64,000 nt of DNA from Azolla caroliniana (lineage: Eukaryota > Plantae > Polypodiophyta): contig JBHGNT010000007.1 in NCBI GenBank assembly GCA_043228905.1, positions 12,834,001 through 12,898,000 on the forward strand, in the 5' to 3' direction. The position numbers were made by a program, and so were the translations under genes. The notes under the pieces were generated by a model. That model did not search any database and was not told the origin of the DNA. It was given only the letters and a program-made list of their open reading frames with translations. Positions 3,001-62,300 of this stretch are shown here, piece after piece; the stretch's first letter is position 1, and each line of letters opens with the position of its first letter.

Positions 3001-3669
3001 CGTAGATGCATCAGATATAGCCATTGGCAGCTCGCTCATGTAGCGCACACCACCAAATTTGTATCGGCTAATGTATTATGCTAGCCGACGACTCTCGGCC
3101 GTGGAGAAGAACTACTCAACCACTGAACGCGAGGCCCTCGGTATGGTTTACAGCATCAACAAATTTCGGCATTATCTCTTGGGCCGAAACTTCACATTCC
3201 ACGTCGACCACTCGGCCCTCCTCTACTTGGTTAATAAGCAGGCCGTCACAGGTCGCCTGGCCCGATGGATGCTTCTGCTACTGGAGTTTGATTTTCAGAT
3301 CCAGCATCGGCTCGACATCCAACACGTCGTAGCTGACTACTTGAGCCGCTTCGAGTCAGGCGAACCATCCGTGTCCACGTATGATGAATTACCCGACGCC
3401 GCCCTTTTTAGTCTCGCAACGGTGCCAAACGCAAATGAGGACGAATGGATCGTAGAGATGACCCATTTTCTCAGCACCGGCCTTCCTCCCAACCACTTGA
3501 CCCTCGACGCTTGAAAACGACTAGCTGTCAGGAGCCAAAAATTTTGTCTTGTCTCCGACACCCTTTACCACAAAGGCTCGGATGGCATCTGGCACCATGC
3601 AATCCGTCAATTTGAGAAACCCCCAATCCTCCAAGAGGCACATCACGGAATCGTGGGGGGACATTACGC
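1..3669 (+). pseudogene. Ty3/gypsy element A (Athila/OTA-like) gag-pol, 5' part: gag C-terminus, protease, RT, RNase H, integrase start; many stops and frameshifts
   Basis: Motifs IDGGSGVN (protease), WLSPIVVVPKKNGKIRVCVDYRKLN and FLDGFSGYNQI (RT), YYASRRLS..EKNYSTTERE (RNase H). Collinear with the near-intact ORF at 23728-29022. Confidence 0.93.
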
Positions 3670-4319
3670 TGTCGTGAAGAAAACCGTCCCTTAGCGCAAT
3701 CGGTGCATAGCGCGCGTGAACCGACTCTTCACGCGTGCACGCCCTTTAATGTATATAATAGGGAATTAGGTACATAGGCATATCCGGGGTAGTTAGATTT
3801 GGTAGGTAGGAAGTAAATGAGGGAGACGGCTCCCTTCCTGAAGATATAAAAGAGAGGGAAACACGGGGGGGAAAGGGATTGCGCATTGAGGAGGACGAAG
3901 TGCTGTCGAACCGTAACCGAACGCTTCTCCTCTGTTCATTCTCCATCGCTCTTCTCTGCAGGATTTCGGGAGGCTCGCGCTGCTTCGAGGAACACCCGTG
4001 TGCTTCCGGCAGCACCTCCATCCTATCCCCTTTCGTGCGCAGACGAACAGGCATCGACATCTGTTCGCCGGCCTATTCGGTTGTAACCGCTCGCGTGCTC
4101 TGTTGTTTTGTGTCATTTGTTAATATACAAACATTCGTGTCTCTCTGTCTCTCTGTCCATTCGTGTTTTCTACGCTGACGGGCCGTGCCCCTGTGTTTCT
4201 TTGCTCATACGTAACCGGTCGTCTCTCTCTTTCTCTTTCCCCTCCTATCACCTGCTCTTCGGTTCAAGACCCCGGTGGTTCCGCCTCGTTTCTCCACGCA
4301 CGCGCGTAGCAACGTGACA
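3670..4319 (+). repeat. 5' LTR of element B
   Basis: TGTCGTG...GTGACA; direct repeat of 9398-10047 with about 20 mismatches counted by eye, mostly transitions at CG sites. Confidence 0.95.
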
Positions 4320-7300: not shown

Positions 7301-9405
7301 GTCATGGAGGTACGGAGGTTCTTGGGAGCATGCGCGTTCTACCACATATGGATCCCGCATTAAACCCACGTTGTCGAGCCGCTATACGGGTTGCTGAAAA
7401 AGGGGCGAAAATTCGAGTGGCGAGACGAGCATACGGAGTCGGTCCGAAAGATGAAGGAGGCTCTTGCTGCAGCTCCGGCACTCCGGAAGGCTGTCTACGA
7501 GAAAGGCACTCCCGTCTACATAACGGTAGATACGAGTCCGACCGGGATTGGATGGGTTGTCAACCAAGAAGATGAGGACGGCAATCGGTTCCCAATCCGG
7601 TTCGGTGCGAAGGTCCTCAGTGAGCGACAACGAGGATACACCCAGGTTAAACGCGAACTCTGGGGTATCGTTTCGGCGGTGAAGGCCTATAAAGACTATC
7701 TGATCGGGACAGAGGTGATTATCGAGATGGATTTCCTACCGATTCTCGGTATGGTTTCCGGATGCGCAACCCCGGACCTGGCAATGCTCAGGTGGATAGC
7801 GTACATCAAGTCCCTGGATCCGGAAATACGACACATTTCCGGGAAAGACAATGCCATGGCCGACATGCTTTCGAGGGCGCGATTCAACGACGAGGGCGGC
7901 ATGGTTTTGGAGGACGAGTAACAACCGAGGGGGGGAGCACTCCAGCGCTTAACGATTTTAACGAGAGCAAGTACGATGGGGAGTGGCTGCAGATTGGAGG
8001 ATTCTTAAGGACGATGACGTCGGACGCGTCATGGACAAAGGACGAGGCCAACCGGATCTGGAAGAAAGCGTACCGATTCTTTCTCCGGGACGGATACTTG
8101 TGGAAGCACCCGAAGAAGAGAAACGGCATCCCGCTCTAAGTAGTGGCGATGAAGGAGGAACAGGAGGAGTTACTGAAGGCCTACCACGACAGCCCCTGGG
8201 CTGGACACCGTGGAACGTGGACCACGTTCGAGAAACTAAAGGGGAAGTACTGGTGGCCGGGACTGTACCGGGACGTGCATCGGTTCGTGACGACTTGTGA
8301 GAGTTGTAAGATACACTCCATAGTCCGACATCGGGACAAGCTTCATCCTACATACCCTCTGGCCGTCCACTTCAAATGGATGGTAGATTTGGTGACGATG
8401 TCGATGGGCATAGGGCAGATGCGATATCTGGTGCTGGCCCGAGAGGACCTGACGAACCAGGTGGAAGGCCGAGCCCTGCAGAACAAAATGACCACGGCCG
8501 TGTGTCGGTTCCTGATCGAGGACGTGATATGCCGGTACGGGTGCGTCGGGAAGATCGTGGCTGACGGCAGGGAGTTGGACGCCGAAGAGGCCGAGGAGCT
8601 ATTCGACCGGTTAGGGGTCAAGCTCTCGCTCACCACGGCGTACAATCCGGAGGCAAACGGGAAGGTGGAGCGCGGACACGGACCGATCGTCAAAGCGTTA
8701 GTCCGGGCATGCGGAGTCCAGGTCGGGAACTGACCACGACTGTTACCTTATGCCTTGTGGGCGGACAGGACAACACACAGTTCGGTAACCGGGTTCATGC
8801 CGTCAAAGCTCATGTTCGGATAGAAGCCGATCATGCCGATGGAACGGACGATCTCCTCTTGGGCGACAGTGGACTGGAGAGACGAGATGAGCCGGGAAGA
8901 ACTACTAGCGGCGCGTATACGACAGCTCGAGCGGAGGCCAGAGGACGCGGAACGAGCGGCGGAGAGACTTCGGATGGCGAGGATGAGGAACAAAGCCCGG
9001 TTCGACCGAACGCACCGGCTCCGGCCAAAGAAAATCGAGGAAGGCGACTGGGTGCTAGTCTACGACAGCAGCCTCGACAACCAGCACCGGGCAACACAGA
9101 AGTTTGCCAAGCGGAAGTTCGGGCCTTACGCGATGACGAGCGCCAATGAGAACGGGACGTATCACCTGGCGGAACTCGATGGTATGAGGATGGCGATACC
9201 GGTAGCAGGGAAGCGGATCAAAGCATTCAAGAAGCGCCACGACGGCGAACCGGATCTAAGAGGCCTGGACAGCGACGACGAACGATCCGAAACGGAGGAC
9301 GAACAGATGGACGAGGAACCGGAACCCAGACCGGTTTTCTCCAACCAGAGCGCAATTTTGGCGCATACCGGTGGATGCGCGGTTAGGTGGGGGCGGATGT
9401 CATGA
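4337..9405 (+). pseudogene. Element B gag-PR and RT-RH-INT, disrupted; internal deletion near 5575 removes the protease N-terminal half
   Basis: Zn knuckle CMWCDEVGHIRKDC; protease C-half HPVILG; RT DLYSGYDQ and FLDDIPIKG; RNase H TVDTSPTGIG; integrase HDSPWAGH..CESC and YNPEANGKVERGH; GPY module. Confidence 0.93.
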
Positions 9406-10047
9406 AGAAAACCGTCCCTTAGCGCAATCGGTGCATAGCGAGCGTGAATCGGCTCTTCACGTGTGCGCGCCCTTTAATGTATATAATAGGGAATTAGGTA
9501 CATAGGCATATCCGGGGTAGTTAGATTCGGTAGGTAGGAAGTAAATGAGGGAGACGGCTCCCTTCCTGAAGATATAAAAGAGAGGGAAACGCGGGGGGGA
9601 AAGGGATCGCGCATTGAGGAGGACGAAGTGCTGTCGAACCGTAACCGAACGCTTCTCCTCTGTTCATTCTCCATCGCTCTTCTCTGCAGGATTTCGGGAG
9701 GCTCGCGCTGCTTCGAGGAACACCCGTGTGCTTCCGGCAGCACCTCCATCCTATCCCCTTTCGTGCACAGACGAACAGGCATCGGCATCTGTTCGCTAGC
9801 CTGTTCGGTTGTAACCGCTCGCGTGCTCTGTTGTTTTGTGTCATTTGTTAATATACAAACATTCGTGTCTCTCTATCTTTGTGTCCATTCGTGTTTTCTA
9901 CGCTGACGGGCTGTGCCCCTGTGTTTCTTTGCTCATACGTAACCGGTCGTCTCTCTCTTTCTCTTTCCCCTCCTATCACCTGCTCTTCGGTTCAAGACCC
10001 CGGTGGTTCCGCCTCGTTTCTCCACGCACGCGTGTAGCAACGCGACA
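9398..10047 (+). repeat. 3' LTR of element B, preceded by PPT GGTTAGGTGGGGGCGGA
   Basis: Direct repeat of 3670-4319; purine-rich tract at 9381-9397. Confidence 0.95.
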
Positions 10048-33886: not shown

Positions 33887-36536
33887 ACGCACAAAGAGAA
33901 GGGGAAGAAGAAGATGTTGGAATACGACACCGGTAGTGAAGGGTCAGATCAGAACGAATCTGATGCCGGAAAGGAAGAAGGCGAATCTTTAGAAAGGAAG
34001 TCTGAACCGGTAAAGAAGGGACTCAAACCGGCTAACGAAAAGTTACGCCGGTCAACCCATCAGAAGAAAACCGTCATGAGGTACGGGTACAATGAATAAA
34101 TGGCGCATCACTATGCGTACATGACTAAGATGGCAGAAGTGCGTGAGCCGAAGAGCTACACAGAAGCAGCAAAAGACGCAAATTGGCATGCTGTTACAGG
34201 CATGACCATATAATATCTCGTGGTGAGAATTTACCGTTGTATTCTTTACACTCTTGTTTAACCCTCACACTTATCCACGTGTATAGAATACTACGGTAAA
34301 TTCTCACCACGAGATATTATATGGTCATGCGTATTCTATACACGTGGATAAGTGTGAGGGTTAAACGAGAGTGTAAAGAATACTATGGTAAATTCTCACC
34401 ACAGGATATTATATGGTCATGCCCGTAACACATGCTGCTAAGGAGGAAGAAATGCGGGCACTAGATACCAACGATACATGGGACCTTGTTGACCCTCCCT
34501 GACGGTGCAAATCGATCGGTTGCAAATGGGTGTACAAAGTAAAGTACAACGCCGACAATTCGGTCAACCGGTCCAAGGCCCGGTTAGTGGCGAAGGGATA
34601 CACATAGACCCACATAATTGACTACGATGAGACCTTTGCTCCGGTAGCGAAGATGACGACGGTTCGTGTGGTACTGGCGGTTGCTGCGGCAAGGGGATGA
34701 CATCTTCACCAAATGGATGCAAAGAATGTGTTTCTTCAAGGTGACCTTGAAGAACGGGTCTATATGATCCAACCCCCCCGGTTTCCAATCGGAGATGAAC
34801 AAGTTGGTAGTGTGCCGACTCAAGAAGTCGCTTTACGGTTTGAAGCAAGCCCCTCGAACTTTGAATGTGAAGATCACGCACCGGCTGCGTAAGATGGGGT
34901 TTGCGGCCTCAAAGTCCGACTCTTCATTGTTCATCCAGAATGGTCTGGACGGTCCGGTTTGCATTTTGCTTTATGTAGATGATTTAGTCATCACCGGACC
35001 CGGACTCCTTGCAATTGGCCGAGTGAAGTCCCAACCGTTGGACGCATTTGAAATGAAGGACTTGGGGGACCTTCATTATTTTCTTGGGATCGAGGTGATC
35101 TGAACCCCTGATGGCATATTGCTCTCACAACGCCATTATGTGTTGAATATGGTGTACAAGTTCAGCATGACAGAATGTCGACCGATCTCCACACCCCTGG
35201 ATCGAAACCTAAAGCTACGTCCTAACTTCGGCTCGACCTGCGATGAGAAATGGTTTCGAAAAATTGTCGAAAGCCTCATATACTTGACAATCACTCAACC
35301 TGACATCAGTTACTCAGTCAGAGTGATCAGCTAGTTCATGTAGAACCCGACCGTCGAGCACCATCAGTGCACACACCGGATACTCCGGTATGTTAGCAGC
35401 ACGAAGGATTGGGGACTGTTATACCAAAATGATATAGCTAGGAAGCTAGTCGGATATACTGATGTCGATTGGGATGGTGATGCATTGGATCGCCGATCCA
35501 CCTCCGGTTACATGTTTTCTCTTGGTAGAGTGGTTGTTGCGTGGAGCAGCAAAAAGTAGCCAACAGTGGCTCGGTCGAGCACTGAGGCTGAATACCGGGG
35601 CGCTACCATTGCCACCTGTGAAGCCATCTGGCTTCGGCGACTGCTACGAGACCTCCGGATCGAGGTGCCGACCCCAATCCTGATTTATTGTGACAACGTA
35701 AGCAGCATACATCTCGCCAAGAACCCTGTATTCCATGCTCAGACAAAGCACATAGAAGTGCATTATCACTTTGTTCGCGAGCGGGTCCTGAGCAGTGAAG
35801 TTGAACTTCGGTAAGTTCACAAGGATTGGCAAGTTGCTAACATCTTCACCAAGCCCCTCGGATCGAACAAGTTGCAGCATTTTTCGAAAAGATGCTCGGC
35901 ATTCAGCATCTCGATGTGCCGCACTTGAGAGGGAGAACGAGAACGAGAACGAATGGCACCAGACAAGGAGCTAGAGAGGAAGAAAGAACCAAGGGGGGAG
36001 ATAAGCATAAAAAGGAAGTCGAACCGACCGAAGGAATCGGCACATCCGAACAAGTCGGAGCAAGCAACAATGGAGGCAGAGTCAAGAAGGACAGAGCCGA
36101 CCAGAAGAAGGCCAAGACCCGAATGTGGTCCGATGTGGTGAAGGGCCTAAAAACGGAAGACGAGTTGGAAACTACCAACTCGGACAAGAGCTGGAATGAA
36201 TTGGAGGAAGCTTATTCGGTTCCAGATTCGGAGAAATCGGATCAACTAAAGGCCAAGCGGATGAGAAGGCAATGGAAGTCGACACTGACACGGAGGAACC
36301 GATGGATCGACAAGCGCAGGAGTCATAACAGCAAAGGAGCTGAAATGGGCATGTTGAGCAGACAAGCCGACCAAGGAGGTCGATGTGCGCAATACCGGAC
36401 GGGTCACGGGAAGCGGAACCGAACCGGACAAGGAGTGCGAGCAAGCCGGGAGGACGTCAGAAGGAGTCGGAGGAAAGGATCGGCTACTGGAGACACTAAC
36501 ACCACGATCCGACCTCAATGTGAGGTTGAGGGGGAG
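33887..36536 (+). pseudogene. Copia E RT-RNase H and charged 3' extension
   Basis: KKSLYGLKQAPR, LLYVDDL, ARSSTEAEY, CDNVSSI, KHIEVHYHFVRE. Confidence 0.92.
34192..34430. mobile_element. 239-bp palindromic (foldback/MITE-like) insertion
   Basis: TGTTAC...GTAACA ends; perfect 5-bp TSD CATGC; internal A-B-A'-B'-A' inverted-repeat structure. Confidence 0.9.
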
Positions 36537-56987: not shown

Positions 56988-57186
56988 AACATCACACTTA
57001 CTATGTATTGCTATCTATCTATTAGAACTAAATATAATAGATCCCCAAATCATCCCTTCCCATCAAACTCATTAGGCTATCCCTCTCTACATTCACTACC
57101 TCCCTAACTCCCACATCCTCCTTTATACACATTCAAAACCCCTCTCTCCCTCTCATCCATCCCCACCACTCCCCTTCTCTCTTCCC

Positions 57187-57467
57187 CGCCATCGTAGGTG
57201 CTTCCCTCGCTTCGGAGACATTTCCATTCTGGATCGACCTATGCTAGAGACAATATATCTAACTTGAGGATGTCACATGTGCCAAAAACCAGATTCCCTC
57301 ATTTCTTTTCTTTTCATGTTATTTACTTTTATATTTACTGTGTAGTATTTATTTTATTTTGATTTGTTCTTAAAGATGAGACAACACTTAAGATGTAATC
57401 TCTTATTTGGTCTTATAGGCCAGTTTGGCCTCTTAAAAGACGTTAATATATCTTTCTTTCTTCTTTC
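57187..57467 (+). mobile_element. 5'-truncated RTEX-like LINE 3' end inserted in the PLE 3' UTR
   Basis: Reverse complement of 60870-61180; (TTTC)n tail; flanked by TCTTCCC on both sides. Confidence 0.75.
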
Positions 57468-57504
57468 ATCTTCCCTTATATAAGCCTCTCACATTTTTGT
57501 ATAT

Positions 57505-57557
57505 GGTCTTTAGCACTGATTCGCTCATATAGAGCGAAACATGTTTGCCAAAAGACC
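57505..57557 (+). ncRNA. Minimal type I hammerhead ribozyme with a mutated core (CUGAUUC)
   Basis: GGUCUUU-A-GCA CUGAUUC GCUC-AUAUA-GAGC GAAAC-AU-GUU UGC-CA-AAAGACC. Confidence 0.72.
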
Positions 57558-57612
57558 TTTTCTTACATAAATTGAAATTTGAATTCTCTCTCTCTCTCTC
57601 TCTCTAATGCTA

Positions 57613-57853
57613 GAAGTCAACCCAGGGATACAAAAATGGGCTTCAGACCAGGACATAACAAAGGGGTTACAATTGATCAGGCAATGACAATTTGCCGTGC
57701 ACGTAGGCCTTGGCCCCATGGACCACGACCTCGACACCCTTGTCATCGACAGATAAAAGCCATTATCTCCCGCCATCGTAGGTGCTTCCCTCGCTTCGGA
57801 GACATTTCCATTCTGCATCGACCTATGCTAGAGATCTTCCAAAGACAAAAGTG
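57613..57853 (+). mobile_element. Internal fragment of the same RTEX-like LINE
   Basis: Reverse complement of ~61095-61338. Confidence 0.75.
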
Positions 57854-60865: not shown

Positions 60866-62300
60866 AGAAAGAAAGAAGAAAGAAAGAAAGAAATATTAAC
60901 GTCTTTTAAGAGGCCAAAATGGCCTATAAGACCAAATAAGAGATTACATCTTAAGTGTTGTCTCGTCTTTGAGAACAAATCAAAATAAAATAAATATTCC
61001 ACAGTAAATATAAAAGTAAATAAGATGAAAAGAAAAGAAACGAGGGAATCTGGTTTTTGGCACACGTGAGATTCTCAAGTTAGGTATATTGTAGCTTTTG
61101 TCTTCGAAAGATCTCTAGCATAGGTCGATGCAGAATGGAAATGTCTCTGAAGCGAGGGAAGCCCCTATGATGGCTGGAGATAATGGCTTTTATCTGTCGA
61201 TAACAAAGGTGTCGAGGTCGTGGTCCATGGGGCTAGGGCCTACGTGCACGGCAAATTGTTATTGCCCGATCGATTGTAACCCCTTTGTTATGTCTTGGTT
61301 TGGAGCCCATTTGTGTATCCCATGATGGACTGGACTTGTAGCATTAGGAGTGATGGGGCTAAAGAAAGTTGTGATTGTTCTTTGTGGATGAGCTTGTGTG
61401 GCTGTATTCTTCAACAACTTTTCGCGATGTCTCTTGAGCTCTAGCAAGAAAAGTCCTAGGCATCGTTGGTCCTCATATTCGATTACCTTGTGTAGTGGGC
61501 CAAAACCTTGTTTAGAGAGGCAATGGTATCTCCCTGTGATTTCATAAAAGACACTACAATGACAAACATAGTGTTCCTCAGATTCCACTCCTTGATTACA
61601 CAATTGGCAAATTCTCTCTTCTAGAGGTAGTCGTGTATATCTGCCTACCTCAATCTGTAGCTGATGTGATGAAGTTCTTAGCTGCCCTATCACACTACGC
61701 AACGCATAGGATAGATGTATGTCCATATAAGGTGTCCTGATGATGAATCCATCCTCCAATGTATGTAAGAAGTGCGTCTTATAGTGGGCCATCTTTGTAC
61801 CAAGTGGTATTTTGGGGCTGATCCATGTTATCTTGTTTTCCAAGTTAATAATATCAGTCCGGATCACTCTATTCTTTTCCACTTTGGTTGTATTTTGGTG
61901 GGGACAGTCCAAGCTATATTGGAATGGCGGTAGTGCATTTATACTCATGCCATGTGACTCGAACCATTGCAAAGAAAGAAAGAAGCCAAAATGGCCTATA
62001 AGACCAAAGAAGAGATTACATCTTTAAGTGTTGTCTCGTCTTCGAGAACAACAAATCAAAATAAAATAAATATTCTTAGTAAATATAAAAGTAAATTGGA
62101 TAAAAAGGGACGAAATAATTTGGTTTTCGGCACATGTGAGATTTTTAAGTTAGATATATTATAACTTTTGTCTTTGAAAGATCTCTAGCATAGGTTGATC
62201 CAAAATGGAGAGGTCTTTGAAGCGAGGGAAGCACCTGCGATGGCAGGAGATAATGGCCTACTTGCGCAACAAATTGCGGTTGTCCGATCTATTGTAACCT
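60866..62300 (-). mobile_element. Two tandem 5'-truncated RTEX-like LINE copies (61970-60866 and ~62300-61971)
   Basis: ORF 61259-61972 has LRTSSHQLQIEVGRY..ERICQLC..VESEEHYVCHC (C-terminal Zn finger); duplicated 3' UTR; each copy ends in (TTTC)n. Confidence 0.8.

What the first reader, a model, noticed from the sequence alone, without database searches (positions are those of the whole stretch)
34187..34435. 239-bp palindromic insertion with integrase-type ends (TG...CA, 5-bp TSD)
Seen: TSD CATGC; ends TGTTAC/GTAACA; layout A-B-A'-B'-A' (A ~45 bp, B ~53 bp), which allows two alternative hairpins (~100-bp outer stem, or A/A' around B). Known: TG..CA with 4-5-bp TSDs marks retroviral-like integrases (LTR elements, Ginger DNA transposons) rather than the usual plant MITE superfamilies. 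Inference: a foldback MITE mobilised by a gypsy or Ginger-type integrase, expanded by template switching, and a likely siRNA source.
Basis: partly seen in the sequence, partly recalled or inferred. Interest (0 to 1): 0.7.

Follow-up and report, generated by a model that had tools for sequence, protein, structure and literature searches.

The report
Retrotransposon-end palindromes that mimic MITEs
This 239-base palindrome is built from two copies of the left tip of a common plant retrotransposon joined back to back, one of at least 110 such inserts in the genome, and it likely arises when the element's integrase inserts two stray DNA ends that the cell's repair machinery then joins, so it imitates a DNA transposon without being one.

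Summary
The insert is made wholly of the first 97 nt (U3 end) of the LTR of an abundant chromodomain-bearing Ty3/gypsy element with PBS and PPT. A 10-bp inverted repeat (LTR nt 51-60/88-97) marks a recurrent fold-back, and the window copy is two such hairpins joined.

The genome holds 110 U3-U3 inserts against at least 1,945 LTRs. Of 62 examined, 46 have exact 5-bp TSDs, 43 lengths occur and no two are identical. Arm variants track separate LTR lineages, so they look like repeated one-off products, not an amplifying MITE. Three loci join a hairpin end to retrotransposon cDNA inside one exact TSD, one a full-length element that keeps its unprocessed U5 dinucleotide.

Best model (inferred): the gypsy integrase inserts two unlinked ends from one particle and host end-joining seals them. 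One insert is a U3-bounded RNase H-integrase fragment, a Ginger-like layout. Ten literature searches found no description. The scan noted a similar 72-bp hairpin in another genome (unchecked). siRNA output is untested.

The parts
34187..34191 (.). Left 5-bp target-site duplication CATGC
   Evidence: Sequence; family-wide 5-bp TSDs
34192..34241 (+). Left U3 end = LTR nt 1-50 (complement of the fold-back arm of the left hairpin); starts with TG
   Evidence: 3 differences in 50 nt from a real LTR copy; decomposition
34242..34330 (-). LTR nt 97 to 9, reversed: loop and trimmed original arm of the left hairpin; the fold-back junction uses the LTR inverted repeat nt 51-60/88-97
   Evidence: 96.6% identical to LTR nt 9-97; inverted repeat found
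34331..34380 (+). LTR nt 48-97, forward: trimmed original arm and loop of the right hairpin; joined to the left half at 34330/34331 without clear microhomology
   Evidence: 100% identical to LTR nt 48-97
34381..34430 (-). Right U3 end = LTR nt 50 to 1 reversed (intact fold-back arm ending TAACA). This is the U3 end, not the family's U5 end TAATA
34431..34435 (.). Right 5-bp target-site duplication CATGC
34503..34697 (+). Host sequence: fragments of a decayed Ty1/copia reverse transcriptase region into which the palindrome inserted
   Evidence: Pfam RVT_2, E 1.7e-6 and 2.1e-4, both below the curated cut-off

Best explanation
The insert is a back-to-back pair of U3 ends of a chromovirus gypsy LTR, likely made when that element's integrase inserts two unlinked DNA ends from one particle and host end-joining seals them. 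SHOWN: all sequence is LTR U3. The family has 110 members with 5-bp TSDs like the parent. Arm variants match LTR lineages. Hairpin ends are found fused to retrotransposon cDNA within one TSD. INFERRED steps: (1) plus-strand synthesis from the PPT stalls early in U3, often at nt 97, and folds back on nt 51-60 to give a hairpin with one double-stranded U3 end ending CA-3'; other short U3-end pieces also arise. (2) The integrase pairs two ends from separate molecules (hairpin plus hairpin, hairpin plus cDNA piece, or two U3 pieces) and inserts them 5 bp apart. (3) The host opens, trims and joins the free inner ends, which gives the variable middles. The window copy is two hairpins joined after trimming. 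The products are predicted to be dead ends that do not transpose again.
For: LTR origin with PPT, PBS-Met, RT, RNase H, integrase and chromodomain. 110 U3-U3 inserts genome-wide, control 0; 0 U5-U5 with the young-subfamily pattern. 46 of 62 exact 5-bp TSD, 58 of 62 within one mismatch, 0 at 4 or 6 bp; shuffled pairs 0.2% and 2.4%. 43 lengths among 62, and 13 of 62 carry LTR beyond nt 100. Same-length pairs differ at 7-14 sites. Rare LTR haplotype C19+C34 occurs in 8 LTR copies and in both arms of hairpin L020. Older-subfamily diagnostics occur in both LTRs and hairpins. L139: full-length element + unprocessed TT + hairpin end inside TSD GGGAT, sharing a private variant with its own LTRs. L147 and L060: hairpin end + 3' cDNA piece inside exact TSDs. 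At 46 fold-back junctions the fold-back arm is intact and the original arm cut in 25, the reverse in 2 (p = 6e-6, or 0.002 length-weighted). Of 33 two-segment junctions, 14 have insertions and 9 have microhomology of 3 nt or more, against 7% in a simulated null; L182 joins arms of 93 and 95 nt. Ty1 integrase inserts two separate 22-30 bp donors concertedly in vitro and prefers U3 (PMC8487063, passages).
Against: Arms are concordant at diagnostic sites (nt 34: 44 of 44; nt 19: 48 of 49). This fits a single folded-back molecule as well as two ends from one particle, and it rules out mixing of unrelated cDNAs. The predicted minimum-energy DNA fold of LTR nt 1-97 does not form the 51-60/88-97 stem, so priming would rest on transient pairing. 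L019 has a whole hairpin in the orientation the model does not predict, and L024 and L082 have the fold-back arm cut. Some junction 'insertions' (L155, L161, L172, L124) may be alignment artefacts from nearby SNPs. Sequence alone cannot tell joining after integration from joining before it. No intermediate was observed.
Confidence: 0.66

Rival explanations
1. Same LTR origin and same integrase, but the two-ended molecule is finished before integration. Reverse transcriptase folds back, makes a second strand and switches template within the particle, or the host ligates free cDNA pieces in the nucleus, and the integrase then inserts one short U3-U3 duplex.
For: Arm concordance. Recurrent junctions at 97/50 (at least 14 of 62), 80/68 (L136, L179) and about 69/50 (L104, L124, L191, L197). 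The right 100 nt of the window copy is the reverse complement of its left 100 nt, as a second fold-back would give. L019 needs a double-stranded hairpin copy.
Against: Junction insertions in 14 of 33 and near-symmetric arms in L182 are hard to get by self-priming. The 25:2 asymmetry and the unprocessed TT at L139 are what one-ended hairpin substrates predict. In the window copy the left hairpin carries T27 in both arms while the right end has C27; this is weak, as the site is often mutated.
Confidence: 0.25
2. A true MITE: it arose once from the LTR and has since been copied by a Ginger-type or other DDE transposase.
For: TG...CA ends, long TIRs and dispersed copies; 12 of 62 are 146-148 bp.
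Against: No two copies are identical. Haplotypes map to at least five LTR haplotypes. 13 of 62 hold LTR sequence that the 147-bp form lacks. The TSD is 5 bp like the parent's, not 4 bp (Ginger1 and Ginger2; PMC2836005 passages) or 6 bp (GingerRoot; PMC6839031 passages). Hairpin ends are fused to cDNA. No search for a Ginger transposase in this genome was run.
Confidence: 0.05
3. Rearrangement after insertion: ordinary solo LTRs were turned into palindromes in the chromosome by replication template switching or repair.
For: The starting material (about 2,000 LTRs) is abundant, and the inverted repeat is present in the chromosome too.
Against: The right end is U3 to the base and abuts an intact TSD in 46 of 62. 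A chromosomal fold-back would run on into the left flank and would have no reason to rejoin exactly after the U5 end.
Confidence: 0.04

Closest known systems
Solo LTRs and truncated or aberrant insertions of Ty3/gypsy chromoviruses (own knowledge; att-site background PMC4029996, passages read)
   Same: Sequence is LTR; TG start; 5-bp TSD; made in the retrotransposon's cycle
   Different: Both ends are U3 in inverted orientation; U5, R, PBS and PPT are absent from the short forms; not a recombination product of two LTRs
In vitro concerted integration of two separate LTR-end oligonucleotides by Ty1 integrase (PMC8487063, passages read)
   Same: Two unlinked short ends inserted at one site, with U3 preferred over U5
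   Different: That is a test-tube reaction with a copia-type enzyme that linearises the target; here the products appear fixed in a genome, with the inner ends joined
Ginger1/Ginger2 and GingerRoot DNA transposons (PMC2836005; PMC6839031; passages read)
   Same: TG...CA termini with TIRs; gypsy-type integrase chemistry. L149 has a U3-bounded RNase H-integrase fragment, which resembles the layout
   Different: TSD 5 bp rather than 4 or 6; no transposase of its own; no sign of cut-and-paste; ends trace directly to a coexisting LTR
MITEs and foldback elements, including Arabidopsis Hairpin elements (recalled, not read; PMC5172404 seen only as a search listing)
   Same: Small, TIR-bounded, hairpin-forming, dispersed
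   Different: Lengths and junctions are heterogeneous, with no amplified uniform family, and the origin is class I
TRIMs (PMC4717578, search listing only)
   Same: Small, non-coding, dependent on retrotransposon enzymes, 5-bp TSD (recalled)
   Different: No direct terminal repeats, PBS or PPT, so it cannot be reverse-transcribed as a unit

Membership tests
MITE (non-autonomous class II) | Short, non-coding, TIRs with a TSD | tested here: met
MITE (non-autonomous class II) | Amplified family uniform in size and sequence, descending from a MITE founder | tested here: not met
   43 lengths in 62, no identical pairs, haplotypes track LTR lineages
MITE (non-autonomous class II) | Ends shared with an autonomous DNA transposon | tested here: inconclusive
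   Ends are shared with an LTR retrotransposon; no genome-wide search for a transposase element with these TIRs was made
Ginger / GingerRoot | TGTNR...CA termini with TIRs | tested here: met
   TGTTA...TAACA (PMC2836005 passages)
Ginger / GingerRoot | 4-bp (Ginger1, Ginger2) or 6-bp (GingerRoot) TSD; TDD-4/5 have 5 bp | tested here: not met
   0 of 62 exact at 4 or 6 bp, 46 of 62 exact at 5 bp; only the TDD length fits
Ginger / GingerRoot | Cut-and-paste movement by its own integrase-like transposase | not testable with these tools
   No excision data; L149 holds only broken RNase H and integrase pieces
Solo LTR | Complete U3-R-U5 with TSD | tested here: not met
   Only LTR nt 1-97 of 455 are present; the right end is U3, not U5
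TRIM | Two direct LTRs, PBS and PPT | tested here: not met
   None in the element; flanks differ between copies
Chromovirus (parent element) | gag-protease-RT-RNase H-integrase order, chromodomain, PBS-Met, PPT, direct LTRs, TSD | tested here: met
   RT closest to Ty3 in the PDB, E 5e-50. The clade within chromoviruses was not tested
Known microRNA family | Rfam gathering score reached | tested here: not met
   Best hit MIR6217 at 92 bits against a cut-off of 110; generic hairpin matches

The most novel reading that the evidence does not exclude
A general, overlooked class of retrotransposon products: LTR integrases in vivo routinely capture two unlinked DNA ends, break the chromosome and leave U3-U3 palindromes. 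These would account for some 'unknown-superfamily' TG...CA, 5-bp-TSD MITEs and TE-derived hairpin RNA loci in plants, and would seed silencing of their own family. When an integrase segment is trapped between the ends (L149), the process would supply the missing step from a gypsy retrotransposon to a Ginger-type DNA transposon.
Probability: 0.3. Interest if true: 0.82.

Novelty: new variant of a known kind. Interest (0 to 1): 0.63.

Why it matters
It shows that a MITE-shaped element can come from a class I life cycle, which matters for how repeats are classified. It would be a genomic record of a reaction known from the test tube, two-donor concerted integration, at a rate of about 110 inserts per at least 1,945 LTRs. 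That would imply that retrotransposition often makes a transient double-strand break. Bao et al. 2010 (PMC2836005, passage read) call the path from LTR retrotransposon to Ginger-type DNA transposon unclear; U3-U3 capture makes TIRs from one LTR in one step, and L149 shows such ends around an integrase fragment. If transcribed, each palindrome would give double-stranded RNA matching the promoter end of some 2,000 LTRs, a testable route to self-silencing.

Tried and rejected
Rfam: only sub-threshold microRNA hairpin hits.

Solo LTR or TRIM: rejected, flanks are unrelated and there is no PBS or PPT.

A first pattern for older-subfamily LTRs found 0. Most of those LTRs carry an extra base, and a shorter pattern then found 93 places.

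The first junction census used a loose probe that also matched plain LTRs (133 rows). It was discarded and redone strictly; the strict probe misses junctions with SNPs, including the window's left one.

Idea that the non-canonical TA U5 end drives U3-U3 capture: not supported, since the older subfamily ends in CA and makes the same products.

U5-U5 palindromes and a LTR-LTR junction: 0 with young-subfamily patterns only.

Expression: no RNA holder listed, so nothing either way.

Polymorphism: empty-site joins cannot be told from paralogues. One search did not list the 97/50 joint among the rows shown (25 not shown).

Six junction-bearing loci (L005, L024, L073, L081, L082 and L065) had no recognisable partner end in the roughly 9 kb fetched on the open side, and L145 had no matching TSD. 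These were left out of TSD counts.

Papers read in passages that proved irrelevant: PMC10085805 and PMC11044480. No supplements were read.

Full report
OBSERVATION. The element lies at 34192-34430 with ends TGTTAC/GTAACA and CATGC on both sides. It has 100-nt outer arms (94% complementary) and 52-nt inner arms (96%), and folds at -172.8 kcal/mol, z = -26. It interrupts a decayed copia RT region (weak Pfam RVT_2 hits). Rfam gives only sub-threshold hairpin matches.

SOURCE OF THE SEQUENCE. A search of the own genome (523 Mb; a plant to judge by its repeats and run labels) returned many shorter relatives, most often 147 bp, with unrelated flanks. Several of these loci also held a longer repeat that starts with the same 97 nt. 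That repeat is preceded by a polypurine tract in some copies and followed by a tRNA-Met primer site in others (both motifs identified from my own knowledge). It is a 455-bp LTR. Paired copies enclose gag, protease, RT, RNase H, integrase and a chromodomain, and are flanked by 5-bp TSDs; the RT is closest to Ty3 in the PDB. The family is young: paired LTRs differ at 0-7 of 455 sites. An exact 19-nt LTR-specific word occurs 1,945 times; the matching hairpin-junction word occurs 42 times. The window element is LTR nt 1-50, then 97 to 9 reversed, then 48-97, then 50 to 1 reversed, with 7 differences in 239 nt from one real LTR copy. Its right end is TAACA, the inverse of U3; the young LTR's own right end is TAATA. 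So both ends are U3.

THE FOLD-BACK POINT. The LTR has a 10-bp inverted repeat with one mismatch at nt 51-60 and 88-97. The 147-bp form is exactly nt 1-97 followed by nt 50-1 reversed, with the mismatch kept. This is what a plus strand started at the PPT would give if it stopped at nt 97 and primed on itself (inference). The predicted minimum-energy DNA fold of nt 1-97 does not contain this stem, so any priming would be transient.

THE FAMILY. A pattern for two inverted U3 ends 84-424 bp apart matches 110 places, with 0 for the reversed control; the corresponding U5-U5 pattern, for the young subfamily only, matches none. One search listed 50 of the 110 places. I fetched 40 of them as L166-L205 and, with loci held earlier, examined 62 unique inserts. 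Of these, 46 have an exact 5-bp TSD and 58 are within one mismatch; none is exact at 4 or 6 bp; shuffled flank pairs give 0.2% and 2.4%. There are 43 different lengths. Twelve are 146-148 bp, at least 14 carry the 97/50 junction, and 13 contain LTR sequence beyond nt 100, up to nt 253, which the 147-bp form lacks. Same-length pairs differ at 7-14 sites.

REPEATED ORIGIN. Variants at LTR nt 19 and 34 segregate among LTRs and appear in both arms of the inserts (44 of 44 concordant at nt 34, 48 of 49 at nt 19). A rare haplotype, C19+C34, is found at 10 places: 8 LTRs and the two arms of one hairpin. G21 is found in 2 LTRs and 2 different inserts. An older LTR subfamily has its own hairpins carrying its diagnostic bases. 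The inserts therefore look made again and again from different LTR lineages, not copied from one founder.

LINK TO THE INTEGRATION COMPLEX. At L139 a full-length 7.0-kb element ends in its U5, then the two bases TT that normally precede the primer site, then LTR nt 56-97 and the fold-back arm. The TSD GGGAT encloses the whole, and the added piece shares a private variant with the element's own LTRs. At L147 and L060 a hairpin end is joined to a 3' piece of the element, inside exact TSDs AGTGT and TGTGG. At L149 two U3 ends enclose RNase H and integrase fragments. Among 46 fold-back junctions, 16 have both arms intact, 25 have the fold-back arm intact and the original arm cut, 2 the reverse and 3 both cut. 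This is expected if the fold-back strand's 3' end is the one joined to the target. Among 33 two-segment inserts, 14 junctions show inserted bases (some perhaps alignment artefacts), 9 show microhomology of 3 nt or more (simulated null 7%), and one joins arms of 93 and 95 nt. By my own knowledge of repair junctions this pattern resembles end-joining more than self-priming.

MECHANISM. I favour insertion of two unlinked ends from one particle by the element's integrase, followed by host opening, trimming and joining (0.66). Ty1 integrase inserts two separate short donors concertedly in vitro and prefers U3 (PMC8487063, passages). HIV integrase is cited as recognising U3 and U5 independently (PMC4029996, passages). 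The main rival is a two-ended duplex finished before integration (0.25). Arm concordance, recurrent junctions and L019 favour it, and sequence alone cannot exclude it. A true MITE (0.05) and rearrangement of solo LTRs in the chromosome (0.04) fit poorly. The LTR origin and insertion by this family's integrase are common to the first two readings and are much more certain than the order of joining. The TA end of the young U5 is not the cause, since the CA-ended older subfamily makes the same products.

COMPARISON AND NOVELTY. It works like an aberrant gypsy integration and looks like a MITE, but fails membership of MITE, Ginger (TSD length; PMC2836005 and PMC6839031, passages), solo LTR and TRIM. 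Ten full-text searches found no description of U3-U3 palindromic inserts. The library lacks most subscription papers and repeat-database entries, and I read no supplements, so prior description cannot be excluded. No earlier scan note matched by sequence. One note from another genome describes a 72-bp hairpin as the detached end of a retro-parasite (e1-9921375, unchecked). Notes from this genome concerned another element. Contigs from two differently labelled organisms also carry the short form (weak). Expression and small RNAs could not be tested.

VERDICT. A real feature and a new variant of a known kind: a recurrent by-product of chromovirus replication that mimics a foldback MITE, with a direct bearing on how an LTR element could acquire terminal inverted repeats. 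Interest 0.63.

Noticed in passing
L149:392-2577 (G000:C13, about 15.447 Mb): A 2.2-kb insert bounded by inverted U3 ends (TSD ATAAG/GTAAG) holding broken RNase H, integrase zinc-finger, core and SH3 pieces but no RT: a Ginger-like layout made from a gypsy element.
   Followed up: partly
L139:2407-9512 (G000:C3): Full-length element with identical LTRs whose right end is an added hairpin U3 end after an unprocessed TT, all within TSD GGGAT.
   Followed up: yes
Parent LTR, e.g. L062, L063: The young subfamily ends TG...TA (TAATA in 34 of 46 matches, the rest mostly spurious), with TSDs directly after; the older subfamily ends in canonical CA.
   Followed up: partly
L061:174-836: The 3' LTR is followed by TT and a second piece, LTR nt 251-455, before the TSD GTGCT; possibly the same two-molecule integration with a U5 end.
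   Followed up: partly
L062, L064: Internally deleted derivatives of about 3.4 kb (LTR spacing about 2,965 bp); in L062 a gag piece is joined to the integrase end and chromodomain.
   Followed up: no
L156:2801-3005 and 3108-3286: Two separate U3-U3 inserts about 100 bp apart, each with its own exact 5-bp TSD.
   Followed up: no
window 3670-4319 and 9398-10047: A 650-bp direct repeat pair at 97% identity, probably the LTRs of an unrelated young element.
   Followed up: no
window 57185-57852 and 60880-62257: Several inverted and direct repeats of 250-300 bp at 78-90% identity, nature unknown.
   Followed up: no
Public runs X1, X2, X6: Contigs from two differently labelled organisms continue past 34330 with the 147-bp form's end in 17-30 contigs each, so the short hairpin form is not confined to this assembly (contigs of repeats can be chimeric).
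   Followed up: partly
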